NCBI GenBank assembly: GCA_022826185.1
Contig: JAJDVH010000153.1
Span: forward strand, 5,070-69,069
Direction: 5' to 3'
DNA from: Alphaproteobacteria bacterium
GTDB lineage: Bacteria; Pseudomonadota; Alphaproteobacteria; Bin95
DNA: 64,000 nucleotides
Under the pieces are notes generated by a model that ran no database searches, was not told the origin of the DNA, and saw only the letters and a list, made by a program, of their open reading frames with translations. This document shows positions 16,375-47,605 of this stretch, piece by piece (position 1 is the stretch's first letter; every line of letters begins with the position of its first letter). Both the position numbers and the translations under genes were made by a program.

Positions 16375-17487
16375 TTGAGCTTTCTTTGGGAATATCTGGT
16401 TCCGTTCCTGGTGCTCCTGGGCGTACTCGTCTTCGTGCACGAGTTCGGTCATTACTGGGCGGCGCGGCGCTGCGGCGTTCGGGTCGAGGTCTTTTCCGTG
16501 GGCTTCGGCCGGGAGCTCTGGGGCTGGACCGACCGGGCCGGAACGCGGTGGAAGATCGCCATAATCCCGCTCGGCGGTTATGTGCGCATGTTCGGCGACG
16601 CGGGAGAGGCGGTTGGCGGGCCGGTATTGACCCCGGAGGAACGGAGCGTCGCCTTCGGAGCCAAACCCCTGGGTCAAAGAGCGTTCATCGTGGCGGCCGG
16701 ACCGGCCGCCAACTTCCTGTTCGCAATCCTTGTCGCTGCCGTGATGTTCATGACGTACGGCCAGAGGCATACCAGCCCGGTCGTGACCGCAGTCGTTGAA
16801 GACAGCGCCGCCGCAGCCGCCGGCATCCGGGCCGGAGACCGGTTCGTTGCGCTCGACGGCGAGACCATTGCGCGCTTCGAGGACCTGCAGCGGATCGTTC
16901 GCCTGAGCCCGGGCCGCCCCCTGGAAGCGGTCCTGGAGCGCGACGGCGAGGAGACCGCGCTGACGATTACGCCACGGGTCTCGCAGCAGACCGACAGCCT
17001 TGGCAACGTGCATGAATTCGGCCTGCTCGGCGTGCGCGGCAAGATGACGGAGATGGTGCGCTATGGCCCCGGTAAGGCGCTTGTCGCGGCTGTCGACTAC
17101 ACATGGACCATGACGGCGACCATCCTGACCTTTATCGGCGAGATGATCGAGGGTCGTCGTTCCACCGACGAACTGGGCGGGGTGCTGCGCATCGGACATA
17201 TCGCCGGCGAGGTCGCGAAGATCGACTTCTCGGCCTATCTGCACTTCATGGTGCTGCTGTCGATCAATCTGGGTCTCATCAACCTGTTCCCGATTCCGCT
17301 TCTGGATGGAGGGCACCTGGTGTTTTACGCCATTGAGGCAATCCGGGGCCGTCCGCTGGGGCAGAAGGCGCAGGAGATCGGGTTCAGAATCGGACTGGGA
17401 GCGGTCGTTGCGCTGATGCTGTTCGTAACCTGGAACGACTTGGTGTACTTTCAGGTCGTTGCGTTTCTGGAACGCGTCGTCGGATGA
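16375..17487 (+). CDS. rseP: RIP zinc metalloprotease RseP (site-2 protease)
   Basis: TTG start (SFLWEYLVPF…HEFGHY). HExxH motif and PDZ region. Confidence 0.9.
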   Translation: MSFLWEYLVPFLVLLGVLVFVHEFGHYWAARRCGVRVEVFSVGFGRELWGWTDRAGTRWKIAIIPLGGYVRMFGDAGEAVGGPVLTPEERSVAFGAKPLGQRAFIVAAGPAANFLFAILVAAVMFMTYGQRHTSPVVTAVVEDSAAAAAGIRAGDRFVALDGETIARFEDLQRIVRLSPGRPLEAVLERDGEETALTITPRVSQQTDSLGNVHEFGLLGVRGKMTEMVRYGPGKALVAAVDYTWTMTATILTFIGEMIEGRRSTDELGGVLRIGHIAGEVAKIDFSAYLHFMVLLSINLGLINLFPIPLLDGGHLVFYAIEAIRGRPLGQKAQEIGFRIGLGAVVALMLFVTWNDLVYFQVVAFLERVVG

Positions 17488-17507
17488 CGCCATCATTGGG
17501 GGTTACC

Positions 17508-19805
17508 ATGGACAAATGGCGAGCCGCGCTTGCCGCATGGGCACTGGCCGCCATTATGGCGCTGGCGCCGGTTGCGGCCGGCGCCCAGAGCGGAGGCGCA
17601 ATCCGCGATATCGAGGTCGTCGGCGCGCAGCGCATCGATCCCGAGACCGTACGGTCCTACCTGCGTATCCGGCCCGGCGATGTCCTCGGGCCGAGAAGCA
17701 TCAGCGATGCCCTAAAAAGCCTGTTCGAGACCGGTTATTTCGCCGATGCCAGCATCGATGTACGCGGCGGCGTCCTGGTTGTGACGGTGGCCGAGAACCC
17801 GATCGTCAACCGGATTGCATTCGAAGGCAATCGGCGCATCGACGACGAGACCCTGAGCCCCGAGGTGCAGCTGAAACCGCGCCAGATCTTCACCCGCTCG
17901 GCGGCGGAAAAGGATGTCAAGCGTATTCTGGAAATCTACCGGCGGTCCGGCCGGTTTGCCGCGAGTGTCGAAGCAAAGCTCATCGAGCTTCCGCAGAATC
18001 GCGTTGATGTCGCTTTCGAAATCGTCGAGGGAGACCAGACGCTCATCGAGAAAATCATTTTCATCGGCAATGAGCAATTCAGCGACAGCGACCTGATCGG
18101 CGAGATCAGCAGCAAGGAAGCGGCCTGGTACCGCTTTCTCTCCAACGACGATGTTTACGACCCGGACCGCGTCGCCTTCGACCGCGAACTGCTTCGCGGT
18201 TTCTACCTCTCGGAGGGCTATGTCGATTTCCGGGTCACTTCGGCCGTGGCGGAGCTCACGCCGGACCGGGACGGCTTCATCCTGACTTTCACGGTCGAGG
18301 AAGGCCCGCAATATACCTTCGGCAAGATCGAACTCGAAAACAAATTGATTGATGTTCCGGATTTTCGCCTGTCCCTGTTGCTCAAGCCGCGATCCGGCGA
18401 AATCTACAACAACGAATTGGTTCGCGAGACGGTTGACGATCTGGTCGATGAGGTCGGAACGTTCGGTTTCGCATTCGTCGATGTGCAGCCGCGTTCGAAA
18501 GTCCGTAGAGAAGAAAAGGAAGTCGATCTGGTCTTCCTCGTGGATGAAGGCCCGAGAGTGTATGTCGAACGTATCGACATCGAAGGAAATTTGCGCACGC
18601 TGGATCGTGTTATCAGGCGCGAATTCGGGATTGTAGAGGGGGATGCCTTCAACACTTCCAAAATTTCCCGCGCGACCCGGCGGGTCCGGAATCTCGGCTA
18701 CTTCAAGAAAGTCGATGTTTCGAACGAGCAGGGCAGTAGTTCGGATCGGGCAAAGGTAACGGTTGAGGTTGAAGAGACACCTACCGGAGAATTCTCGATC
18801 GGAGCCGGATATTCGAGCGAAAGCGGGGCCTTGTTCAACGTAAGGCTTGCTGAACGAAATCTGCTCGGGAAAGGACAGGAACTTGCCTTGGCCGCCACCG
18901 TGTCCGAGAGCCAGAACCAGATCGACCTGTCGTTCACCGAACCCTACTTCCAGGACCAGCCGATCTCGGTGGGCGCGGATGTGTTCCGGCTCACGACGGA
19001 TTATGACGACAGGCAGATCGACGAAGAGGAGACTATCGGTGGCCGCCTGAGGGTCGGCTACAAGCTGTCCGAGAACTGGACCCAGAGATGGCGCTATACC
19101 CTGAGTCAACGCAATACGGACTACGATGAAAGCAGAACAACCCTTAAAGATTCCGACACGCTGTTGTCGGCCGTCGGGCACGAGGTCGCTTACGACACGC
19201 GGGACAACCGGTTCACCCCGACATCCGGGCGCGTGCTGAGCATCGGCAACGACCTTGCCGGCCTCGGAGGCGATGCCTCCTTCCTTCGCACCGATGTCAG
19301 GGGCTCCCAGTATCTCCCAATGTCGAAACGGCCGACGGTGACGCTGGCACTGTCGGCAAGGGCGGGGGCCATCGTCGGCCTCGGCGAGGATGTCGAGGGT
19401 TCCGACCGTTATTTCCTCGGCGGCAGGAGCTTGAGGGGCTTTGAAAGCGGTGGCGTCGGCCCGAGGTGCAGGACGGGGCTGGACGGCTGTATTTCTGGCG
19501 TTGCACTCGGAGGAAATTACCTCGCCACCGCGACTGCCGAGGCGATCTTCCCGATCGGGCTATCGTCCGAGGACCTGGGCCTTCAGGGCAGGCTTTTCGC
19601 CGAGTTCGGTACGCTTTTCGATGTCGATACCAATATCAATAACGACCAATACCACGACGAGTCCTCGATACGCGGTTCGCTGGGCTTCGGTGTTTCCTGG
19701 ACCACGCCGCTCGGCCCGCTTCGCCTGGATTTCGCCTGGCCTGTGATGAAAGAGGATTACGACAAGGACGAGACGATCCTGTTCAGCATCGGGACCCAGT
19801 TCTGA
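17508..19805 (+). CDS. bamA: Outer membrane protein assembly factor BamA
   Basis: Signal peptide (MDKWRAALAAWALAAIMALAPVAAGAQ), POTRA repeats, and a C-terminal beta-barrel ending …FSIGTQF. Confidence 0.95.
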   Translation: MDKWRAALAAWALAAIMALAPVAAGAQSGGAIRDIEVVGAQRIDPETVRSYLRIRPGDVLGPRSISDALKSLFETGYFADASIDVRGGVLVVTVAENPIVNRIAFEGNRRIDDETLSPEVQLKPRQIFTRSAAEKDVKRILEIYRRSGRFAASVEAKLIELPQNRVDVAFEIVEGDQTLIEKIIFIGNEQFSDSDLIGEISSKEAAWYRFLSNDDVYDPDRVAFDRELLRGFYLSEGYVDFRVTSAVAELTPDRDGFILTFTVEEGPQYTFGKIELENKLIDVPDFRLSLLLKPRSGEIYNNELVRETVDDLVDEVGTFGFAFVDVQPRSKVRREEKEVDLVFLVDEGPRVYVERIDIEGNLRTLDRVIRREFGIVEGDAFNTSKISRATRRVRNLGYFKKVDVSNEQGSSSDRAKVTVEVEETPTGEFSIGAGYSSESGALFNVRLAERNLLGKGQELALAATVSESQNQIDLSFTEPYFQDQPISVGADVFRLTTDYDDRQIDEEETIGGRLRVGYKLSENWTQRWRYTLSQRNTDYDESRTTLKDSDTLLSAVGHEVAYDTRDNRFTPTSGRVLSIGNDLAGLGGDASFLRTDVRGSQYLPMSKRPTVTLALSARAGAIVGLGEDVEGSDRYFLGGRSLRGFESGGVGPRCRTGLDGCISGVALGGNYLATATAEAIFPIGLSSEDLGLQGRLFAEFGTLFDVDTNINNDQYHDESSIRGSLGFGVSWTTPLGPLRLDFAWPVMKEDYDKDETILFSIGTQF

Positions 19806-40649: not shown

Positions 40650-40718
40650 GGCGTTGTCTCGCACCGGAACGCATGTTAGCCCTTGCCGGCACCTGCACCC
40701 GGCCTCGGAGTTTTCCGA

Positions 40719-43700
40719 ATGACGGCCCGCTTCTTCGAGCGCCCGATTCTCAACTCGCCATACGAATATCCGTCGCGACATTGGGAGCTTGACGGGACCA
40801 CCCGCCAGCCGACCGACCGAATCCTCGAACGCCGTCGGGATGTCGATTTCATTACGCCCATTCCTGCGGCCAGAAAGCGGCGGAACACGCAGGAACAACT
40901 GATTCTTCACGAAACCGCGGAACGGATCGGGACGGAGAGCCAGCAATACAAGCTGGCCGAGATGATCGCCAGCATCCGCCGCCAGGTCGATATCTGGCGC
41001 GCGCTGCCGGAGGCGCAATGGCGGGTGACGCCGGAAACGGCCCGGCTGCTACGGCATTGGCGCAATCATAAATTCAACGATATCAGGCCGTTCTTCTGCC
41101 AAGTGGAGGCCGTGGAGACCGCGATCTGGCTGACGGAGGTGGCGCCGTCACAGGGAAGCGCCGGGCGAGCTTTTCTCGAAGAACTCGAAAGGGCAAACGA
41201 AGACGCGAATCCCGGCTTATCCCGGCTGGCGCTGAAACTCGCGACAGGTGCAGGCAAAACCACCGTTATGGCCATGCTCATCGCCTGGCAAACCGTCAAC
41301 GCGGTGCGCCGGCCCGGCAGCCGGCGTTTTACTCGGGGGTTCCTCGTCGTCACTCCCGGCATCACTATCAAGGACCGGCTGCGCGTGCTCCAGCCCAACG
41401 ACCCGGACAGCTACTACCGGGAGCGGGAACTGGTGCCTGCCGACATGCTCGGCGACCTCGGCAAGGCGAAGATCGTCATCACCAACTACCACGCCTTCAA
41501 GCCCAAGGAGACGATGGCGGTTTCAAGGGGCGGCCGTGCGCTCCTGCAGGGCAGGGGGCCGGATCTGCGCACGGTGGAAACCGAAGGTCGGATGGTCCAG
41601 CGCGTGGTCGAGGACCTTATGGGTCTGAGGAATATCCTCGTGCTCAATGACGAGGCGCATCACTGCTACAGGGAGAAACCCGCCGACGAAGACGACGAAG
41701 GCGTTCTCCGGGGAGAGGACCGCACCGAGGCCGAGAAGAACCGGGAAGCCGCCCGGCTCTGGATATCCGGGCTGGAGGCGGTTGACCGCAAGCTCGGCCT
41801 CGCCCGCGTGGTCGATCTTTCGGCCACACCGTTCTTCCTGCGCGGATCGGGCTATGCGGAAGGCACGCTTTTCCCCTGGACGGTGAGCGACTTCTCGCTG
41901 ATGGACGCCATCGAGTGCGGCATCGTCAAGCTGCCGCGTGTGCCGGTCGCCGACAACATTCCGGGCACCGAGATGCCGACCTTCCGTAACCTCTGGCAGC
42001 ATATCGGCAAGGACATGCCGCGAAAGGGCAGAAGCAAGGCGTCCGGGCTGGACCCGCTGCGACTTCCTACCACGCTGCAGACGGCGCTGGAGGCTCTTTA
42101 CGGCCACTACGAGGATACTTTCGGGCTATGGCAGGAACAGGGCATCGAGGTGCCGCCCTGCTTCATCGTGGTCTGCAACAACACGGCTACCTCAAAGCTG
42201 GTTTACGACTTTATTTCCGGGTTCCACCGTACAGGTCCTGACGGTTCTCAAGCGTTGGTACAGAGCCGCTTCCCGCTTTTCCGGAATTTCGACGAGTTGG
42301 GCGCTCCACTCGCCCGCCCGCATACCTTGCTGATCGACAGCACGCAGCTTGAGTCCGGGGAGGCACTGGACCGGAATTTCCGCGCTGCGGCAGCGGATGA
42401 GATCGAACGTTTCCGCCGGGAGATCGTTGAACGCACCGGTGACCGGCAGCAGGCCGAGAAGTTGTCCGATGCAGATTTGTTGCGCGAGGCGATGAACACG
42501 GTCGGCAAGGCGGGCCGGCTTGGCGGTGCGACCCGTTGCGTGGTGTCGGTTTCCATGTTGACGGAAGGCTGGGATGCCAACACTGTCACCCATGTGCTCG
42601 GCGTCCGCGCGTTCGGCACGCAGCTCCTCTGCGAGCAGGTCGTCGGCCGGGCCTTGCGCCGACAGTCATATGAGTTGAACGAAGACAAACTGTTCGACGT
42701 TGAATATGCCGACGTCCTCGGGATCCCCTTCGATTTCACCGCCGAACCTGTTGTGGCGCCGCCACAGCGGCCTCGCAAGACCGTCCAGGTCCGGGCCGTC
42801 CGCCCAGAACGCGACGGGTGCGAAATTCGCTTCCCGCGCGTAGCCGGCTATCGGATCGAACTGCCGGAGGAGCGGTTGGAAGCGGAATTCAATACGGATT
42901 CGACGCTGGAACTGACCCCCGATCTCGTCGGCCCTACGAGAACCCGAAACGAGGGTATTGTCGGTGAAGGCGTCGATCTGACGGTAGAGCGCTTGGAAGG
43001 CATGCGGTTGCGGACGATTCAGTTTCATCTCGCAAACCATCTGTTGAACACGAAGTATCGGGACTCCGGCGAGGAACCGAAATTGCACCTGTTCGGCCCG
43101 CTCAAACGGATTACGCGCGAATGGCTGGACGATCACCTCGTTTGCAGGGGCGGCACCAAGCCGGCGCAAGTGCTGTATCCCTCATTGAAGGAGGTAGCTT
43201 GCGAGCGGATCAAGCAGGCAATCGACCGGGGCAGCGCGCAGCGCAAGGCGAGAGAAGACTCAAGCGAACCTTCCATTACGGCCGTGCTCGACCCCTACAA
43301 CCCTTCCGGTTCCACGGCCCATGTCCGTTTCACCACGACGAAGCAGTCTCTCTGGACGACGAATCCCGACCGTTGCCATATCAACTATGCCGTCTATGAC
43401 AGCGGCTGGGAGGCGGAGTTCTGCCGTATCGCCGATGCCCATCCCCGCGTCCGTGCCTGGGTGAAGAACCACGGCCTCGGCCTGGAGGTGCCCTATCGGT
43501 CCGGTTCCGAGACCCGGACCTACATTCCGGACTTCATCGTCCTGGTCGATGACGGGCGCGGTGTGGATGACCCGCTTCACCTGGTCATCGAGATCAAGGG
43601 CTATCGCGGTGAGGACGCGAAGGACAAGAAAGGGACCATGGACACCTACTGGGTGCCCGGCGTGAACGCGCTCGGTGATTACGGTCGCTGGAAGTTTACG

Positions 43701-43886
43701 GAATTCACGGATGTGTATGACATGGAAGATGATTTTGCCCGCATCGTGGGGCCGGAATTCGACCGCATGGTCGGCCAATTCCGTTCGTCCACCGAAATCG
43801 AATCCAGCAGATGGCTGGCAGAGAGCGGAGGCAGCGCTCCGGACCTCGAATACATTCCCCGTCGTCGAAGTGAAGCGGCCGGATGA
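40719..43886 (+). CDS. Type III restriction enzyme Res subunit (SF2 helicase plus C-terminal PD-ExK endonuclease)
   Basis: Walker A LATGAGKTT, DEAH box VLNDEAHH, and a C-terminal PD…EIK motif (YIPDFIVLV…VIEIKG). Start at ATG 40719. Confidence 0.85.
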   Translation: MTARFFERPILNSPYEYPSRHWELDGTTRQPTDRILERRRDVDFITPIPAARKRRNTQEQLILHETAERIGTESQQYKLAEMIASIRRQVDIWRALPEAQWRVTPETARLLRHWRNHKFNDIRPFFCQVEAVETAIWLTEVAPSQGSAGRAFLEELERANEDANPGLSRLALKLATGAGKTTVMAMLIAWQTVNAVRRPGSRRFTRGFLVVTPGITIKDRLRVLQPNDPDSYYRERELVPADMLGDLGKAKIVITNYHAFKPKETMAVSRGGRALLQGRGPDLRTVETEGRMVQRVVEDLMGLRNILVLNDEAHHCYREKPADEDDEGVLRGEDRTEAEKNREAARLWISGLEAVDRKLGLARVVDLSATPFFLRGSGYAEGTLFPWTVSDFSLMDAIECGIVKLPRVPVADNIPGTEMPTFRNLWQHIGKDMPRKGRSKASGLDPLRLPTTLQTALEALYGHYEDTFGLWQEQGIEVPPCFIVVCNNTATSKLVYDFISGFHRTGPDGSQALVQSRFPLFRNFDELGAPLARPHTLLIDSTQLESGEALDRNFRAAAADEIERFRREIVERTGDRQQAEKLSDADLLREAMNTVGKAGRLGGATRCVVSVSMLTEGWDANTVTHVLGVRAFGTQLLCEQVVGRALRRQSYELNEDKLFDVEYADVLGIPFDFTAEPVVAPPQRPRKTVQVRAVRPERDGCEIRFPRVAGYRIELPEERLEAEFNTDSTLELTPDLVGPTRTRNEGIVGEGVDLTVERLEGMRLRTIQFHLANHLLNTKYRDSGEEPKLHLFGPLKRITREWLDDHLVCRGGTKPAQVLYPSLKEVACERIKQAIDRGSAQRKAREDSSEPSITAVLDPYNPSGSTAHVRFTTTKQSLWTTNPDRCHINYAVYDSGWEAEFCRIADAHPRVRAWVKNHGLGLEVPYRSGSETRTYIPDFIVLVDDGRGVDDPLHLVIEIKGYRGEDAKDKKGTMDTYWVPGVNALGDYGRWKFTEFTDVYDMEDDFARIVGPEFDRMVGQFRSSTEIESSRWLAESGGSAPDLEYIPRRRSEAAG

Positions 43887-44254
43887 TTCTGGTGGATACG
43901 GTGGTGTGGATCGATCATCTGCGCGGTACCGAGCCTCATCTTGAGGAGATGTTGGACGCCGGTAACGTGGTGATGCATGCCATGATTCTCGGTGAGCTTG
44001 CGTGCGGCAACATTCCGAAGCGAGCAGAATTTCTGCAACGAATGCAGGATCTGCCGAATATCCGCGAGTGCACTCATGTCGATGTCATGTCCATGATTGA
44101 AACGAACGGGCTTATGCGCAGGGGAATCGGCTTTGTGGACGCGCATCTTCTTTGTTCAGTTCTCGAGCACGCTGGCATGACGCTCTGGACACGGGACCGA
44201 AAATTGAAGCGGATGGCGGAGACCCTTGGAGTTTCCTATGTGGAAAATGCTTAA
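43883..44254 (+). CDS. Orphan PIN-domain ribonuclease (VapC-like) embedded between res and mod
   Basis: 123 aa (MILVDTVVWIDHL…GFVDAHL…TRD) with PIN acidic residues. ATGA overlap with the res stop, no cognate antitoxin ORF. GC about 52% against a background of about 67%. Confidence 0.7.
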   Translation: MILVDTVVWIDHLRGTEPHLEEMLDAGNVVMHAMILGELACGNIPKRAEFLQRMQDLPNIRECTHVDVMSMIETNGLMRRGIGFVDAHLLCSVLEHAGMTLWTRDRKLKRMAETLGVSYVENA

Positions 44255-44355
44255 CGAGGCTGTTGGGGGCGAAATGCGACGTCCGGACACGAAGACAGTG
44301 CGTGCGGGGAGTTCCCGCTCGATGGCCTCCCTGCGCTTTGCCGGAAACGGTTGAT

Positions 44356-47151
44356 ATGGCGCGCCGCAGCAGGAAGACGCCGAAATCCGTCGAGACCCTC
44401 ACCCACGGCGAGGCGTCCAGGCGGAACATTCCGACGGCGGAGTTCCATCCCGTCATGGCGGAGGAGGAGAAGGCGCCGCGCCCGGTGGTCTATGAGCGCA
44501 ACCGGGACCTCGATCCGCAGCTTGTCTGGCGCGGGAAGGAGGCGCAGGACGCGGCGGACCTCACCGTGCAGGCGCCGCCGCTCTACATCCAGGAGAAGGT
44601 GCATCCCAAGGCGCTGGTAGACGACCTGCTGCGGCAGACGAAGGCGCGCCGCGACGAGGAGGCGGAGGCGGCGCCGGACCTGTTCGCCGATTTCAACGGC
44701 CTGCCGGACGAGGACGCGCGCACGGAGTTCTACCGCCACGACGCCAACTGGTCGAACCGCATGATCCTGGGCGACAGCCTGCAGGTGATGGCGAGCCTTG
44801 CCGAGCGCGAGGGCCTGCGCGGCAGGGTGCAATGCATCTATATCGACCCGCCCTACGGCATCCGCTTCAACTCCAACTTCCAGTGGTCCACCACCAGCCG
44901 CGACGTGAAGGACGGCAATGCCGCCCACATCACCCGCGAGCCGGAGCAGGTGAAAGCCTTCCGCGACACCTGGCGCGACGGCATCCACTCCTATCTGACT
45001 TATCTCCGCGACCGGCTGACGGTGGCGCGGGAACTGTTGACGGAAAGCGGCTCGGTCTTCGTGCAGATCGGGGACGAGAACGTTCACCGGGTCCGGGCGT
45101 TGATGGATGAGGTGTTTGGGGACAAAAATTTCGTGTCAGTAATCACCTTAAAGAAGACAGCAGTTCAGACTGATTTAGCGCTACCCAGTGTTTCAGATTA
45201 CATCATATGGTTCTGTAAGGATATAAATTCAATAAAGTATCGACAAGTATACCTTTCGAAAGGTATAGGAGATCCGGGATCCGAACAATACAAATTAATT
45301 CGAATAGAGGGAGGTCATTTCAGACGGATAAAGGATCAATCTAGCTATACAATTCACGAGCTATGCCGACCAGATAACCTAACGTCTAGTCACGAATACA
45401 GTAGAGGTCGAGAAATTATCGAGTTTCGGGGGCGTCAATTTTCTCCAGGTAATCGCTATTGGTCAACGAGCCCGGAATCTATCCAACGTCTGGAGAAAGC
45501 AGATCGTCTACACGCGGGAACAGGGCGATCCTTGAGCCACGTTAGGTTCCTTAGCGACTTTTCGATTATGCCACTTTTGAATATCTGGACTGATACAGGC
45601 ACAGGCGGTTACGGAGACGAAAAATACTATGTGGTACAAACTACCTCAAAAATTATTCAACGCTGCGTTCTGATGACCACCGACCCCGGCGATCTCGTGC
45701 TGGACCCGACCTGCGGCTCTGGCACCACTGCATATTGCGCAGAGCAGTGGGGCCGGCGATGGATCACCATCGACACCTCCCGCGTGGCGCTCGCGCTGGC
45801 GCGGGCGCGGGTCATGGGCGCGCGCTATCCCTGGTATCTGCTGGCCGACAGCCCGGAGGGGCAGCGCAAGGAGGCCGAGATTATCCGCCGTGCTCCCTCG
45901 GAAACGCCGACTGGCGGCAATATCCGACAGGGCTTCGTCTATGAGCGCGTGCCGCATATCACGCTGCGCAGCATCGCCAACAATGCCGAGATCGACGTGA
46001 TCTGGGAGAAGTGGGAAGAGCGGCTGGCGGCGCTCCGTGGCCAGTTGTCAGTGACCGGTGGCCAGGAAGAAACTCTCGAAGAATGGGAAGTCCCGCGCGA
46101 GCGTCCCGACCACTGGCCACCGGCCACCGACTCCTTGCTCGCCGAATTCTGGGAGCTTCGCATAGCCCGGCAGAAGGAGATCGACGCCTCCATCGCCGCC
46201 AGGGCCGATACCGAATATCTCTACGACAAGCCCTATGAGGACCGGTCCCGCATCCGCGTCGCCGGCCCCTTCACGGTCGAGAGCCTGGCGCCGCACCGGA
46301 TGCTGGCCGTCGACGAAGACGACGAGCTGTTCTCCACCCTCGGCGAAAAGGGCCGCACCTATGGCGAAGCGCCCGACTTCGCGGAGATGATCCTGGAGAA
46401 CCTGAAAACCTCTGGCGTTCAGCAGGCGCATAGGGAGGATCGGATTGCCTTCTCCTCCCTCGCGCCCTGGCCGGGCGACGGCTATATCTGCGGCGAGGGC
46501 CGCTACGAGGAGGCGGACGGCAAGCCGCGCCGCGCCGGCATCTTCATCGGCCCGGAATTCGGCACCGTCTCGCGCCCCGACCTCTCCGCCGCTGCCCGCG
46601 AGGCGGCCGAAGCCGGCTTCGACGTGCTCATCGCCTGCGCCTTCAGCTACGACGCCCATGCCAGCGAGTTCGAGCGGCTGGGCCGCATCCCCGTCCTCAA
46701 GGCGCGCATGAACGCCGACCTGCACATGGCCGACGATCTGAAGAACACGGGCAAGGGCAATCTCTTCGTCATCTTCGGCGAGCCCGACATCGATATCCTG
46801 GACGAAGGCGGCGACGAAATCAGGGTCAGGATCAACGGCGTGGACGTGTTTCACCCGAATTCCGGCGAGGTGCGCAGCGACGGGCCGGACGGCATTGCCT
46901 GCTGGTTCGTGGACACGGACTACAACGAGGAGAGCTTCTTCGTCCGCCACGCTTATTTCCTGGGCGCCAACGACCCCTACAAGGCGCTCAGGACGACGCT
47001 CAGGGCAGAGATCGACGAGGACGCCTGGGCCACGCTCAACAGCGACACCTCGCGCCCGTTCCCGCGCCCGGCCTCCGGCCGCATCGCCGTCAAGGTCATC
47101 AACCATCTGGGCGACGAGGCGATGAAGGTGTTTCGAGTGGATAGTGGCTAG
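44356..47151 (+). CDS. Type III restriction-modification Mod subunit (beta-class N6-adenine/N4-cytosine DNA methyltransferase) with a long C-terminal extension
   Basis: Motif IV DPPY (IYIDPPYGIRF) precedes motif I (DPTCGSGTT), with a variable region between. 931 aa. Start at ATG 44356. Confidence 0.85.
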   Translation: MARRSRKTPKSVETLTHGEASRRNIPTAEFHPVMAEEEKAPRPVVYERNRDLDPQLVWRGKEAQDAADLTVQAPPLYIQEKVHPKALVDDLLRQTKARRDEEAEAAPDLFADFNGLPDEDARTEFYRHDANWSNRMILGDSLQVMASLAEREGLRGRVQCIYIDPPYGIRFNSNFQWSTTSRDVKDGNAAHITREPEQVKAFRDTWRDGIHSYLTYLRDRLTVARELLTESGSVFVQIGDENVHRVRALMDEVFGDKNFVSVITLKKTAVQTDLALPSVSDYIIWFCKDINSIKYRQVYLSKGIGDPGSEQYKLIRIEGGHFRRIKDQSSYTIHELCRPDNLTSSHEYSRGREIIEFRGRQFSPGNRYWSTSPESIQRLEKADRLHAGTGRSLSHVRFLSDFSIMPLLNIWTDTGTGGYGDEKYYVVQTTSKIIQRCVLMTTDPGDLVLDPTCGSGTTAYCAEQWGRRWITIDTSRVALALARARVMGARYPWYLLADSPEGQRKEAEIIRRAPSETPTGGNIRQGFVYERVPHITLRSIANNAEIDVIWEKWEERLAALRGQLSVTGGQEETLEEWEVPRERPDHWPPATDSLLAEFWELRIARQKEIDASIAARADTEYLYDKPYEDRSRIRVAGPFTVESLAPHRMLAVDEDDELFSTLGEKGRTYGEAPDFAEMILENLKTSGVQQAHREDRIAFSSLAPWPGDGYICGEGRYEEADGKPRRAGIFIGPEFGTVSRPDLSAAAREAAEAGFDVLIACAFSYDAHASEFERLGRIPVLKARMNADLHMADDLKNTGKGNLFVIFGEPDIDILDEGGDEIRVRINGVDVFHPNSGEVRSDGPDGIACWFVDTDYNEESFFVRHAYFLGANDPYKALRTTLRAEIDEDAWATLNSDTSRPFPRPASGRIAVKVINHLGDEAMKVFRVDSG

Positions 47152-47267
47152 TGGCCGGTGGCCAGTGGATAGTGAATGGTAGATAGTGGATAACGGTTGC
47201 AGGCGGGCCTCGGCCGGACTATCCACTAGCCACTGACCACTAGCCACTGACCACTGGCGGCCGCCTC
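47134..47267. repeat. Palindromic heptamer-repeat element, copy 1 (full inverted repeat). Left arm is about seven NNAGTGG heptamers; right arm is five CCACTNN heptamers plus GGCGGCCGCC
   Basis: gagtggatagtggctagtggccggtggccagtggatagtga… loop gttgcaggcgggcctcggccggac …tatccactagccactgaccactagccactgaccactggcggccgcc. The left arm overlaps the mod stop; the right arm ends 2 nt before the ATG at 47268. Confidence 0.8.
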
Positions 47268-47519
47268 ATGGAAACCTGGATTACGCCGGCGCTGGTCGTC
47301 GCGCTGGCCGCGCTCATGATCGGTATGATCCGCTCGCTGCGCAGCGATCTGGAACAGCGCATCGACAGGGTCGAACAACGAATGGATCGCCTGGAGACCG
47401 GCCAGGTCGAGTTGAAGGAAGGTGTAGCCGAAGTGCGGGGAGAACTGAGGTTTGTCCGCGACTACATTCTTCGGCGCAACATGCCGATGGAAGAGCCGCC
47501 GGCTGCGCCAGCGGAATAG
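47268..47519 (+). CDS. Small membrane-anchored coiled-coil protein (hypothetical; DUF1640-like architecture)
   Basis: 83 aa with an N-terminal TM (ITPALVVALAALMIGMI) and then a heptad coiled coil (LEQRIDRVEQRMDRLETGQVELKEG). Flanked by two copies of the heptamer-repeat element. Confidence 0.5.
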   Translation: METWITPALVVALAALMIGMIRSLRSDLEQRIDRVEQRMDRLETGQVELKEGVAEVRGELRFVRDYILRRNMPMEEPPAAPAE

Positions 47520-47523
47520 GCCA

Positions 47524-47605
47524 ATGGCTGGTGGATAGCAGTTGCAGGCCGGCTTCGGCCGGACTATCCACTAGCCACTGACCACTAACCACTGGCGGCC
47601 GCCCC
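47524..47605. repeat. Palindromic heptamer-repeat element, copy 2 (short left arm, same loop and right arm)
   Basis: ggctggtggatagca gttgcaggccggcttcggccggac tatccactagccactgaccactaaccactggcggccgcc cc ATG; about 90% identical to the right half of copy 1. Confidence 0.8.

What the first reader, a model, noticed from the sequence alone, without database searches (positions are those of the whole stretch)
45110..45670. Mod gene is a GC mosaic: a roughly 45%-GC block coincides with the target-recognition domain between methyltransferase motifs IV and I
Within mod, the segment encoding roughly residues 255-440 (…DKNFVSVITLKKTAVQTDLALPSVSDYIIWFCKDINSIKYRQVYLSKGIG…YYVVQTTSKIIQRCV…) is strikingly AT-rich compared with the flanking roughly 65-68% GC. 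That flanking sequence encodes DPPY (IYIDPPYG) upstream and DPTCGSGTT downstream. In beta-class Type III Mod proteins this is exactly where the TRD sits. The pattern indicates recent TRD replacement by recombination from a low-GC donor, meaning a specificity switch.
Basis: seen in the sequence. Interest (0 to 1): 0.55.

Follow-up and report, generated by a model that had tools for sequence, protein, structure and literature searches.

The report
Swappable AT-rich recognition cassette in mod
The AT-rich block inside this DNA-methyltransferase gene is real and is the exchangeable DNA-recognition module of a Type III restriction system, but all 99 relatives examined have the same AT-rich module, so the dip marks a well-known cassette-swapping design, not a datable import from a low-GC donor.

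Summary
Observation confirmed. Window 45123-45671 is 42.4% GC against 67.0% and 66.2% in the rest of mod. It is the lowest 549-bp stretch in the 64 kb (z = -5.9). GC3 is 0.38 against 0.91/0.86, and CAI is 0.25 against 0.81/0.76. The block is the variable target-recognition domain (TRD) of a 931-aa Type III Mod, lying after DPPY and before DPTCGSGTT.

Recombination is shown. The closest relative (L081) is 94% and 87% nt-identical in the two arms and has no detectable nt similarity in the block (27% aa). The same TRD type (70-82% aa) occurs only on backbones 73-83% identical. Maximum-likelihood breakpoints are 45122/45123 and 45671/45672 (Fisher p about 1e-46).

"Recent import from a low-GC donor" is only partly supported:
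- In 99 of 99 family genes the TRD has lower GC3 than its arms.
- All carriers of this TRD type, in hosts of 44-66% GC, have TRD GC of 0.40-0.44, with near-saturated synonymous sites.
- Which piece moved cannot be told.
- One 44%-GC carrier is compositionally uniform, so a low-GC lineage of origin is possible.

This is a new member of a known kind: TRD swapping, and a low-GC recognition domain in modA12, are already published.

By-catch: the res-mod gap is a cargo slot for toxin genes, and Res carries a fused VapB-like tail ahead of a PIN toxin gene.

The parts
40719..43886 (+). res, the restriction subunit (1055 aa from the gene-caller's ATG; the mechanical ORF starts at 40683)
   Evidence: Pfam ResIII (1.3e-08) plus a weak RE_endonuc match. 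NCBIfam NF046055 'BPTD_3080 family restriction endonuclease' scores 1306.9 bits against a cut-off of 800 and covers residues 18-1020 of the 1067-aa ORF. Gene call in L085.
43743..43883 (+). 47-aa C-terminal tail of Res that lies outside the Res family model. It ends in ...SRWLAESGGSAPDLEYIPRRRSEAAG, which resembles the C-terminal extension of VapB antitoxins.
   Evidence: The NF046055 profile ends at Res residue 1020. The tail aligns with the C-terminal LGGSxPxLxxIPRRR extension of free-standing VapB antitoxins (PF09957) that precede most of the 80 PIN homologues retrieved from metagenomes. The same tail is found on Res in L001, L005, L069 and L084, and on an unrelated 1092-aa protein in L026.
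43883..44254 (+). PIN-domain (VapC-like) toxin gene in the res-mod slot. Its ATG overlaps the res stop codon (ATGA).
   Evidence: Pfam PIN, 9.4e-08, 33.1 bits against a cut-off of 23.6. The NCBIfam VapC models score below their cut-offs. There is no separate antitoxin ORF.
44356..47151 (+). mod, a Type III DNA methyltransferase of 931 aa
   Evidence: Identical to P0001. Pfam N6_N4_Mtase, 1.8e-29. PADLOC MTase_III PDLC03632, 1325.6 bits, full length. The best solved relatives are Type III Mods 6K0W, EcoP15I 4ZCF and Mbo45V 7DSU.
44356..45122 (+). conserved 5' arm of mod (motifs IV-VIII), with host-like composition
   Evidence: GC 0.670, GC3 0.91, CAI 0.81. 94% nt-identical to L081 over 44356-45134, and 95-100% per 60-nt block over 44413-45069.
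44845..44856 (+). motif IV, DPPY (residues 164-167)
   Evidence: Invariant D164 P165 P166 Y167 in the 46-sequence alignment.
45123..45671 (+). AT-rich TRD cassette (residues 257-439), the finding itself
   Evidence: GC 0.424, GC3 0.38, CAI 0.254. It is the variable segment of the family, with column conservation of 0.39-0.56 over residues 261-400 against about 0.9-0.98 in the adjoining conserved blocks. Maximum-likelihood breakpoints are 45122/45123 and 45671/45672. There is no blastn similarity to L081 between 45135 and 45660.
45672..47151 (+). conserved 3' arm of mod: motif X/I and a C-terminal region of about 440 aa with no Pfam family
   Evidence: GC 0.662, GC3 0.86, CAI 0.76. 87% nt-identical to L081. 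No Pfam match for residues 491-931 at E <= 0.1.
45703..45726 (+). motif I, DPTCGSGT (residues 450-457; AdoMet binding)
   Evidence: Invariant D450 P451 T452 C453 G454 G456 T457. Aligned with DFFAGSGTT of 6K0W.

Best explanation
The block is the target-recognition-domain cassette of the Mod subunit of a Type III restriction-modification system (res, PIN, mod; Res of the BPTD_3080 family).

In this gene family the two arms of mod are conserved and track host composition. The central roughly 180-residue TRD exists as dozens of divergent types. These are exchanged as whole blocks by homologous recombination within the conserved sequences that border them (...MDEVFG on the left, QRC(V/I)LMTTDPGD... 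on the right). Because the TRD sets which DNA sequence is methylated and restricted, each exchange re-targets the whole system.

The window's mod is one such mosaic. Its arms are closest to a relative from the same sample series that carries an unrelated TRD, and its TRD type is otherwise found on more distant backbones.

The AT-richness travels with the cassette. It is a family-wide property of TRD cassettes and of this TRD type in every carrier. It is not evidence for the time of arrival or for a particular low-GC donor.

Shown here: the composition, the breakpoints, the phylogenetic incongruence and the family-wide pattern. Inferred: the change of specificity, the recombination mechanism, and that the system is active.
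For: Composition and codon usage.

The TRD is the only strongly variable segment between highly conserved arms.

Mosaic against L081: res 78% nt, slot unrelated, 5' arm 94%, TRD no hit, 3' arm 87%.

Breakpoints at 45122/45123 and 45671/45672. Informative sites (window = L081 / window = L083) are 105/24, 41/206 and 205/98, p = 6e-46. With L084 in place of L083, p = 7e-69.

Among 114 full-length homologues there are 58 TRD types. The 44 nearest backbones (84-94% identical) all carry other types, and the window's type occurs only on backbones 73-83% identical.

Among 80 genes with DNA, TRD identity does not follow backbone identity (rho = -0.15). In the 42 listed genes whose nearest backbone neighbour is at least about 85% identical, the TRD identity to that neighbour is only 22-46%.

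Converse mosaic: L084 and L086 share the TRD at 91% nt but the arms at only 80% and 76%.

Family-wide AT-rich TRD: 80/80 genes, plus 3/3, plus 16/16 on viral contigs. The effect is at synonymous sites: GC3 is 0.48-0.54 in the TRD against 0.73-0.78 outside, while GC1+2 is 0.47-0.50 against 0.52-0.53. It is not a general feature of variable columns, since variable columns outside the TRD have GC3 of 0.73.

Type III assignment.

Published precedent: TRD movement between Type III mod genes by recombination at conserved motif sequences (PMC3467074), and en-bloc exchange of the recognition domain with lower GC in modA12 (PMC3311624).
Against: - No methylome or activity data exist, so the specificity difference is inferred.
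- The direction of the event is unresolved. The window's TRD-to-backbone distances to the other carriers of its TRD type are congruent (TRD 69-82%, backbone 73-83%). The window lineage could therefore have kept an old TRD while its near relatives swapped theirs.
- The unusually high identity of the 5' arm to L081 (94%, against 87% for the 3' arm and 78% for res) could equally reflect a recent conversion of the arm itself.
- The window and L081 come from metagenome assemblies of the same sample series, so a chimeric assembly cannot be formally excluded. However, the identical protein is called on two separate assembly records, and the same mosaic pattern occurs in closed long-read chromosomes.
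- The cause of the universal AT-richness is not explained by cassette exchange alone.
Confidence: 0.8

Rival explanations
1. One reading: the TRD was imported recently, by recombination, from a low-GC donor organism, and has not yet had time to drift towards the 66% GC of its host.
For: - GC3 of 0.38 and CAI of 0.25 are far outside the host range.
- One carrier of the same TRD type, L183 (context GC 0.44), has a compositionally uniform mod: TRD GC3 is 0.36 against 0.42 and 0.37 for the arms. The cassette therefore has the composition of a genome of about 42-44% GC.
- TRD turnover is fast relative to drift in composition. The window and L081 5' arms are 0.91 identical at four-fold sites yet carry unrelated TRDs.
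- On the window's branch, third positions that are A/T in the other carriers have more often become G/C (7 against 1 on strict counts). This count is biased; see evidence against.
Against: - Every one of the 99 family genes has a TRD that is AT-richer than its arms, including hosts of 41-47% GC.
- This TRD type has GC of 0.40-0.44 in five other hosts of 49-63% GC, and their synonymous sites are near saturation with the window's (0.29-0.37). Each carrier would then need its own recent import.
- The closest TRD is only 82% aa and about 73% nt identical, and it sits in a host of about 60% GC.
- The polarised substitution counts are unreliable because the outgroups are saturated. The arms show the opposite artefact.
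Confidence: 0.2
2. The AT-richness is a steady state kept up by a local process, not a fading footprint of transfer.

Each TRD type is a rare allele under diversifying selection and recombines only with its own type. The weak forces that keep third positions G/C-rich elsewhere (selection on codon usage or GC-biased gene conversion) would then be ineffective inside the cassette, which drifts towards the AT-biased mutational equilibrium. Alternatively, slow, rare codons are selected in the TRD.

Cassette swapping still occurs. This rival concerns only the cause of the low GC.
For: - The negative offset is universal (99/99) and lies at synonymous sites. It is present even at conserved TRD columns (GC3 0.54) and absent from variable columns outside the TRD (0.73).
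- The regression TRD GC3 = 0.075 + 0.54 x arm GC3 meets the line of equality only near GC3 0.16, so symmetric exchange among family members cannot produce it.
- The same TRD type stays at GC 0.40-0.44 across hosts although its synonymous sites have turned over.
- In low and mid-GC hosts the arms are G/C-richer than their genomic context. For example L019 is 0.59 against 0.50, and L026 is 0.61 against 0.54.
Against: - There is no direct measurement of substitution spectra or allele frequencies.
- The transitions in GC3 are sharp and coincide with recombination breakpoints, as expected for imported blocks.
- L183 shows that a uniform low-GC version exists.
- Mobile elements, which are generally AT-richer than their hosts (own knowledge), could be the reservoir. 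The family does occur on predicted viral contigs, but their TRDs show the same offset relative to their own arms.
- The sample is biased towards high-GC hosts, because the loci were ranked by similarity to a high-GC query.
Confidence: 0.3
3. There was no recombination: the TRD diverged in place under strong diversifying selection, and its amino-acid composition makes it AT-rich.
For: TRDs of all types remain homologous at 25-56% aa identity, with 1126 representative clusters at E <= 0.001. K294, R384, W411 and D413 are invariant in the alignment.
Against: - Nucleotide identity to L081 drops from about 97% to random within about 10 nt at both edges.
- The same TRD type occurs on distant backbones, and a TRD that is 91% identical sits on arms that are 76-80% identical.
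- The GC deficit is at third positions, not at positions 1 and 2.
Confidence: 0.03
4. Assembly artefact: the metagenome assembler joined two strains' mod genes across the conserved arms.
For: The window and its closest relative come from the same sample series (the KELL22-1 samples) and share a nearly identical 5' arm.
Against: - The arm is 94-97% identical, not 100%.
- Two switches would be needed.
- The identical 931-aa protein is called on two different assembly records.
- The same arm/TRD mosaic and AT-rich TRD are present in closed chromosomes and in many independent projects.
Confidence: 0.03

Closest known systems
TRD (DNA-recognition-domain) exchange in Type III mod genes: Helicobacter pylori mod loci (Furuta & Kobayashi 2012, PMC3467074) and modA of Neisseria/Haemophilus (Gawthorne et al. 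2012, PMC3311624)
   Same: - Conserved 5' and 3' arms flank a hypervariable central domain.
- Exchange is en bloc, with breakpoints in sequences that encode conserved methyltransferase motifs.
- TRD and non-TRD trees are incongruent.
- A lower GC in the recognition domain than in the arms was reported for modA12 and read as horizontal transfer.
   Different: - Here the family is a 931-aa Mod with an uncharacterised C-terminal region of about 440 aa.
- It is paired with a BPTD_3080-type Res in the order res-(cargo)-mod.
- It is spread over many phyla of environmental bacteria.
- There is no simple-sequence repeat tract, so it is not phase-variable.
- The AT-rich TRD is universal across the family (99/99) and is not confined to one allele.
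EcoP15I / EcoP1I, the canonical Type III R-M systems (structure 4ZCF)
   Same: - A beta-class N6-adenine methyltransferase with the order motif IV, TRD, motif I.
- Res has an SF2 helicase and a C-terminal endonuclease domain.
- The closest solved structures by sequence and by fold are Type III Mods.
   Different: - The canonical gene order is mod then res, and the canonical Mod is about 645 aa (own knowledge, and the P1 record).
- Sequence similarity is limited to the methyltransferase core (E = 5e-13).
- The P1 mod gene is AT-rich throughout and shows no clean arm/TRD/arm contrast.
TRD shuffling in Type I HsdS specificity subunits
   Same: Recognition modules are exchanged by recombination at conserved spacer regions, which creates new specificities while the catalytic parts stay constant (PMC3077401; PMC5399793).
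   Different: It involves a different protein family and architecture: two TRDs per HsdS, in a separate subunit. Here a single TRD is embedded inside the methyltransferase.
PrrC anticodon nuclease nested in the Type Ic EcoprrI locus, and HEPN toxins embedded in or fused to R-M components (Anantharaman et al. 2013, PMC3710099). This comparison is relevant to the by-catch only.
   Same: An RNase-type toxin gene sits inside an R-M operon and is presumably held in check by the R-M proteins. Toxin domains embedded in R-M operons are documented.
   Different: Here the toxin is a PIN (or HepT in L081), and the antitoxin part (a VapB tail, or an MNT domain) is fused to the C-terminus of Res. No functional data exist.

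Membership tests
Type III R-M modification subunit (beta-class N6-adenine DNA methyltransferase) | Circularly permuted motif order: motif IV (DPPY), then TRD, then motif I (FxGxG) | tested here: met
   DPPY is at residues 164-167, the variable TRD at 257-439 and DPTCGSGT at 450-457. Pfam N6_N4_Mtase spans the region, 1.8e-29.
Type III R-M modification subunit (beta-class N6-adenine DNA methyltransferase) | Closest characterised or solved relatives are Type III Mods | tested here: met
   phmmer against the PDB: 6K0W Mod 1.2e-16, EcoP15I Mod 4ZCF 5e-13, Mbo45V 4e-11. Foldseek top hits are the same, but TM-scores are low because the model is poor (pLDDT 51.7). PADLOC MTase_III PDLC03632 scores 1325.6 bits over the full length.
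Type III R-M system | Adjacent Res subunit with an SF2 helicase and an endonuclease domain | tested here: met
   ResIII 1.3e-08. RE_endonuc 0.0016, which is below Pfam's cut-off. NCBIfam NF046055 'BPTD_3080 family restriction endonuclease' scores 1306.9 bits against a cut-off of 800. The res-mod pairing is conserved in the related loci.
Type III R-M system | Canonical operon order mod then res | tested here: not met
   The order here and in all related loci is res, then a variable slot, then mod. This is a difference in organisation within a family that curated models still label Type III.
Type III R-M system | Hemimethylation of an asymmetric site, and ATP-dependent cleavage that requires two inversely oriented sites | not testable with these tools
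   Needs a methylome and biochemistry.
Allelic TRD-cassette exchange (as in H. pylori mod, modA) | Conserved arms, a hypervariable centre, and incongruent TRD and arm relationships with breakpoints at the TRD edges | tested here: met
Phasevarion-type mod (phase-variable) | Simple-sequence repeat tract in the mod coding region or promoter | tested here: not met
   Tandem Repeats Finder finds no such tract in 44356-47135. It finds only heptamer arrays that begin at the 3' end of mod (47136 onward).
VapBC type II toxin-antitoxin (for the PIN gene in the slot) | PIN-domain toxin preceded by a separate VapB antitoxin gene | tested here: inconclusive
   The Pfam PIN match passes its cut-off (33.1 against 23.6). 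The NCBIfam VapC models score below theirs (29.5 against 80). There is no separate antitoxin ORF. Only the C-terminal VapB-like extension is present, and it is fused to Res.

The most novel reading that the evidence does not exclude
The AT-richness of TRD cassettes is a steady-state, intrinsic signature of the cassette and not a fading footprint of a low-GC donor.

In this reading, TRD types are rare alleles kept by diversifying selection, and each recombines only with its own type. The weak forces that keep synonymous sites G/C-rich in the rest of the genome do not operate inside them. They therefore sit near the AT-biased mutational equilibrium in every host, while the freely recombining arms track, or exceed, host GC.

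If so, GC dips are useless as clocks for TRD acquisition. Instead they would be a compositional marker of balanced, non-recombining cassettes inside bacterial genes.
Probability: 0.3. Interest if true: 0.65.

Novelty: new member of a known kind. Interest (0 to 1): 0.4.

Why it matters
For this locus: the organism almost certainly methylates and restricts a different DNA motif from its nearest relatives in the same environment. That matters for gene flow and phage resistance between co-occurring strains.

More generally, the analysis is a caution. A sharp GC dip over a recognition domain is the normal state in this very widespread R-M family, so it cannot be read as a recent import.

If the universal synonymous AT-bias of TRD cassettes proves to be a steady state, it would be a clean natural test of what maintains GC content in bacteria.

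The by-catch is the variable toxin cargo between res and mod, with antitoxin parts fused to Res. It suggests a built-in second line of defence, or an addiction module, in Type III systems that could be tested directly.

Tried and rejected
- **TRD-only word-index protein search.** It returned only 13 hits, mostly fragments, at 37-68% identity, so it did not find donors.
- **Exhaustive search of the TRD against 50%-identity representatives.** It found 1126 clusters, none above 56% identity. It shows that TRD types are homologous but cannot find near neighbours, because of the clustering.
- **AlphaFold2 model from the 46-sequence alignment.** The model was poor (pLDDT 51.7), so the Foldseek result is used only as weak support.
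- **Polarised counts of synonymous A/T-to-G/C against G/C-to-A/T changes.** These were done on the window branch and on the close L084/L086 pair. They were rejected as a test of drift towards the host against steady state, because the outgroups are saturated and their composition biases the polarisation. The arms show the mirror-image artefact.
- **P1 EcoP1I mod as an independent Type III example.** The gene is AT-rich throughout and its GC3 declines into the C-terminal half, so it is uninformative.
- **Literature search for BPTD_3080.** Nothing was found.
- **Search of the window for a second mod or TRD copy that could be an intragenomic donor.** None was found.
- **Search for island boundaries by repeats.** There are no flanking direct repeats, only local heptamer arrays after mod.
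- **Amino-acid composition as the cause of the family-wide dip.** Rejected, because GC1+2 is nearly equal inside and outside the TRD.
Full report
**1. The observation**

Sliding-window GC drops from 0.57-0.73 to 0.36-0.49 between about 45075 and 45675.

The gene is the + strand ORF 44152-47151. Its real start is almost certainly ATG 44356, because the 931-aa product is identical to a database protein (P0001) and to the gene call on a second assembly record (L085).

In codon terms, GC3 falls from 0.77-1.0 to 0.27-0.53 and recovers to 0.67-0.97. The breakpoints were fixed with relatives (section 3). With them:
- The block 45123-45671 is 42.4% GC, against 67.0% and 66.2% for the two arms.
- It is the lowest 549-bp stretch of the 64-kb window (mean 0.660, sd 0.040, z = -5.9).
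- Against a codon table from 34 host-like ORFs of the window, its CAI is 0.254. The arms score 0.81 and 0.76, and the lowest of 276 reference 183-codon windows scores 0.359.
- GC2 is unchanged, GC1 is somewhat lower, and GC3 collapses from 0.91/0.86 to 0.38.

**2. What the block is**

Evidence that mod is a Type III methyltransferase:
- It has a Pfam N6_N4_Mtase domain (1.8e-29).
- It matches PADLOC's MTase_III model PDLC03632 over its full length (1325.6 bits).
- Its closest solved relatives are the Type III Mods 6K0W, EcoP15I (4ZCF) and Mbo45V. A Foldseek search of a poor AlphaFold model gives the same top hits.

Upstream lies res. It has a ResIII helicase and a weak endonuclease domain, and NCBIfam names it 'BPTD_3080 family restriction endonuclease' (1306.9 bits against a cut-off of 800).

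DPPY is at residues 164-167 and DPTCGSGT at 450-457. In an alignment of 46 homologues these and most flanking columns are invariant. Residues of about 257-436 are the only long variable stretch.

There is no simple-sequence repeat tract, so this is not a phase-variable mod.

**3. Recombination**

Per-region identities split the best hits into two groups:

| Group | Examples | Arm identity (aa) | TRD identity (aa) |
|---|---|---|---|
| Near backbone, different TRD | P0007, P0004, P0017 | 94-97% (5') / 79-93% (3') | 28-37% |
| Same TRD type, more distant backbone | P0002, P0005, P0006, P0008, P0010 | 80-86% (5') / 75-79% (3') | 80-83% |

At the DNA level the nearest backbone is L081. It comes from the same sample series as the window. 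Its identity to the window by segment:

| Segment | nt identity to L081 |
|---|---|
| res | 78% |
| res-mod slot | unrelated |
| mod 5' arm | 94% (95-100% per 60-nt block over 44413-45069) |
| 45135-45660 (TRD) | no detectable similarity |
| mod 3' arm | 87% |

Identity ends just after GATGAGGTGTTTGG (about 45120-45125) and resumes at CGCTGC...TGACCAC (about 45660-45675).

Counts of informative sites, written as window = L081 / window = L083, are 105/24 in the 5' arm, 41/206 in the TRD and 205/98 in the 3' arm (Fisher p = 6e-46). With L084 in place of L083, p = 7e-69. The two-breakpoint maximum-likelihood solution is 45122/45123 and 45671/45672.

Among 114 full-length homologues there are 58 TRD types at 60% identity or more. 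The 44 nearest backbones all carry other types. The window's type occurs only on backbones 73-83% identical.

In 80 genes with DNA, TRD identity does not follow backbone identity (rho = -0.15).

The converse mosaic also exists. L084 and L086 share the TRD at 91% nt while their arms are only 80% and 76% identical.

En-bloc TRD exchange at the conserved borders is thus well supported. It matches what is published for Type III mod genes (PMC3467074; PMC3311624).

**4. Why 'recent import from a low-GC donor' is only partly right**

*Family-wide pattern.* I measured TRD and arm composition in:
- 77 loci from one-genome-per-species contigs;
- the window and six loci fetched by exact protein;
- 16 genes on predicted viral contigs.

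In all 99 genes the TRD has lower GC3 than its arms. For the first 77, the mean difference is -0.26 (sd 0.11, range -0.54 to -0.02). The window ranks 4th most extreme of 80.

The effect is at synonymous sites. GC3 is 0.48-0.54 inside the TRD against 0.73-0.78 outside, whereas GC1+2 is 0.47-0.50 against 0.52-0.53. It holds at conserved TRD columns. It is not seen at variable columns outside the TRD (GC3 0.73).

It persists in hosts of 41-47% GC.

*This TRD type.* Its composition in the other carriers, against the window:

| Carrier | Context GC | TRD GC | TRD GC3 |
|---|---|---|---|
| window | 0.66 | 0.42 | 0.38 |
| L083, L084, L086, L087, L088 | 0.49-0.63 | 0.40-0.44 | 0.28-0.43 |
| L183 | 0.44 | 0.41 | 0.36 |

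Four-fold sites between the window and the first five are near saturation (0.29-0.37 identical, against 0.26-0.28 expected from composition). The cassette has therefore been AT-rich throughout a long divergence.

*Direction.* The window's distances to those carriers are congruent between TRD (69-82%) and backbone (73-83%). The window lineage may therefore have kept its TRD while near relatives swapped theirs. The outlying similarity of the 5' arm to L081 may be a recent conversion of the arm, limited by the unrelated slot on one side and the unrelated TRD on the other.

The cassette therefore has the composition of a genome of about 42-44% GC, and a low-GC lineage of origin is conceivable. It is not a direct donor.

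**5. What causes the universal AT-richness**

Symmetric exchange among family members cannot produce a negative offset in every host. The regression TRD GC3 = 0.075 + 0.54 x arm GC3 (r = 0.56) meets equality only near GC3 0.16.

Three candidates remain:
- (a) A constant flux of cassettes from AT-rich reservoirs, with residence times much shorter than the time needed to drift to host composition. In support, turnover is fast: the window and L081 arms are 0.91 identical at four-fold sites yet carry unrelated TRDs.
- (b) A steady state, because weak GC-favouring forces are ineffective in rare, type-restricted alleles.
- (c) Selection for rare codons in the TRD.

My attempts to separate these by polarised substitution counts were biased by saturated outgroups, and I discard them. 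This part remains unexplained.

**6. Comparison with what is known, and novelty**

TRD movement in Type III mod genes is established, as is a recognition domain with lower GC than its arms, read as horizontal transfer (PMC3467074; PMC3311624). The finding is a new member of a known kind.

Differences from the textbook systems:
- The gene order is res, slot, mod.
- Mod is 931 aa, with an uncharacterised C-terminal half that has no Pfam match.
- The family spans very many phyla.
- The AT-rich TRD is universal in the family.

**7. By-catch**

*The slot is a cargo site.* In about 25 of 63 loci, res and mod abut. In the others the gap is 0.1-2.2 kb. Cargo found in the gaps:
- Fic (4 loci)
- MNT (4) and HepT (3)
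- PIN (2)
- NYN (2)
- TIR
- GmrSD
- DUF4062 with HATPase_c_4 (2)
- Bro-N and ORF6N
- DUF2283 (2)
- HicA and HicB

*In the window the slot holds a PIN gene.* Its ATG overlaps the res stop codon, and there is no antitoxin ORF.

*Res carries a VapB-like tail.* The last 47 residues of Res lie outside the Res family model. They end in GGSAPDLEYIPRRR. Most of the 80 PIN homologues retrieved from metagenomes are preceded by a free-standing antitoxin of about 65 aa (PF09957). Its C-terminal extension, LGGSxPxLxxIPRRR, aligns with the Res tail.

*The tail recurs elsewhere*:
- On Res of L069, with an intact PIN.
- On Res of L084, with a truncated PIN.
- On Res of L001 and L005, with no PIN detected.
- In L026, on an unrelated 1092-aa protein, again followed by an overlapping PIN.

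*L081 shows the same logic with another family.* There, Res is fused to an MNT antitoxin domain and is followed by HepT.

I infer that the antitoxin part is tethered to Res, so that the toxin is held by the restriction subunit. Toxin genes embedded in R-M operons are known (PMC3710099). I did not find this particular fusion described, but I did not search exhaustively.

**8. Verdict**

- Observation: confirmed.
- Interpretation: partly supported. The TRD assignment is right and recombination is shown. The claims of a recent event and a low-GC donor are not.
- Kind: an ordinary example of a known design in a little-studied but very widespread Type III family.
- Open points: an unexplained family-wide compositional rule, and a testable side observation on toxin cargo.

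Noticed in passing
window 43887-44355 (the res-mod gap); L001-L088 equivalents: The gap between res and mod is a variable cargo slot across the family. It is empty in about 25 of 63 loci and 0.1-2.2 kb in the others. It carries Fic, MNT/HepT, PIN, NYN, TIR, GmrSD, DUF4062+HATPase_c_4, Bro-N/ORF6N, DUF2283 and HicA/HicB genes.
   Followed up: partly
window 43743-44254; L069 5502-5977; L084 7632-7888; L026 12384-12883: Res ends in a 47-aa tail outside its family model. The tail's GGSxPDLExIPRRR motif matches the C-terminal extension of free-standing VapB antitoxins (PF09957) that precede PIN homologues. A PIN gene follows with an ATGA overlap and there is no separate antitoxin. The same tail+PIN unit is attached to an unrelated 1092-aa protein in L026.
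   Followed up: partly
L081 4262-8000 (also L082): In the closest relative, Res (1124 aa) carries a C-terminal NTP_transf_2 (MNT antitoxin) domain and is followed by a HepT-like toxin gene before mod. This is the same antitoxin-fused-to-Res logic with a different toxin family.
   Followed up: no
window 44413-45122 against L081: The mod 5' arm is 95-100% nt-identical per 60-nt block to a relative from the same sample series, while res is 78% and the 3' arm 87%. The tract is bounded by unrelated sequence on both sides (slot cargo and TRD). This suggests a very recent exchange of the arm itself between co-occurring populations.
   Followed up: partly
window 45826-47148 (Mod residues 491-931): The C-terminal half of Mod, about 440 aa, is highly conserved across phyla but has no Pfam family and no counterpart in the roughly 645-aa canonical Type III Mods. 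The AlphaFold model was too poor to assign a fold.
   Followed up: partly
window 47136-47594: Heptamer arrays start at the last codons of mod (AGTGGAT x 8 at 47136-47192). They have an inverted partner (47218-47255) and a 64-nt repeat in two copies (47186-47249 and 47531-47594, 92% identical) that flank a called 83-aa ORF. The motif occurs nowhere else in the window.
   Followed up: partly
L019, L026, L030, L037, L045, L002, L042 (mod arms against context): In hosts of 50-54% GC the conserved mod arms are G/C-richer than their surroundings (for example 0.59 against 0.50), while the TRDs are AT-richer. The two parts of the gene deviate from the host in opposite directions.
   Followed up: no
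window 18041-18966: This is the only other stretch of the window where 549-bp windows fall below 55% GC. It lies inside a 773-aa ORF (17484-19805) that reads like the outer-membrane assembly factor BamA by eye. No domain search was run.
   Followed up: no
window 40683-44254: res (GC 0.62, GC3 0.76, CAI 0.59) and the PIN gene (GC 0.53, GC3 0.62, CAI 0.47) are also compositionally atypical for the host, though much less so than the TRD. The mod arms are fully host-like.
   Followed up: no
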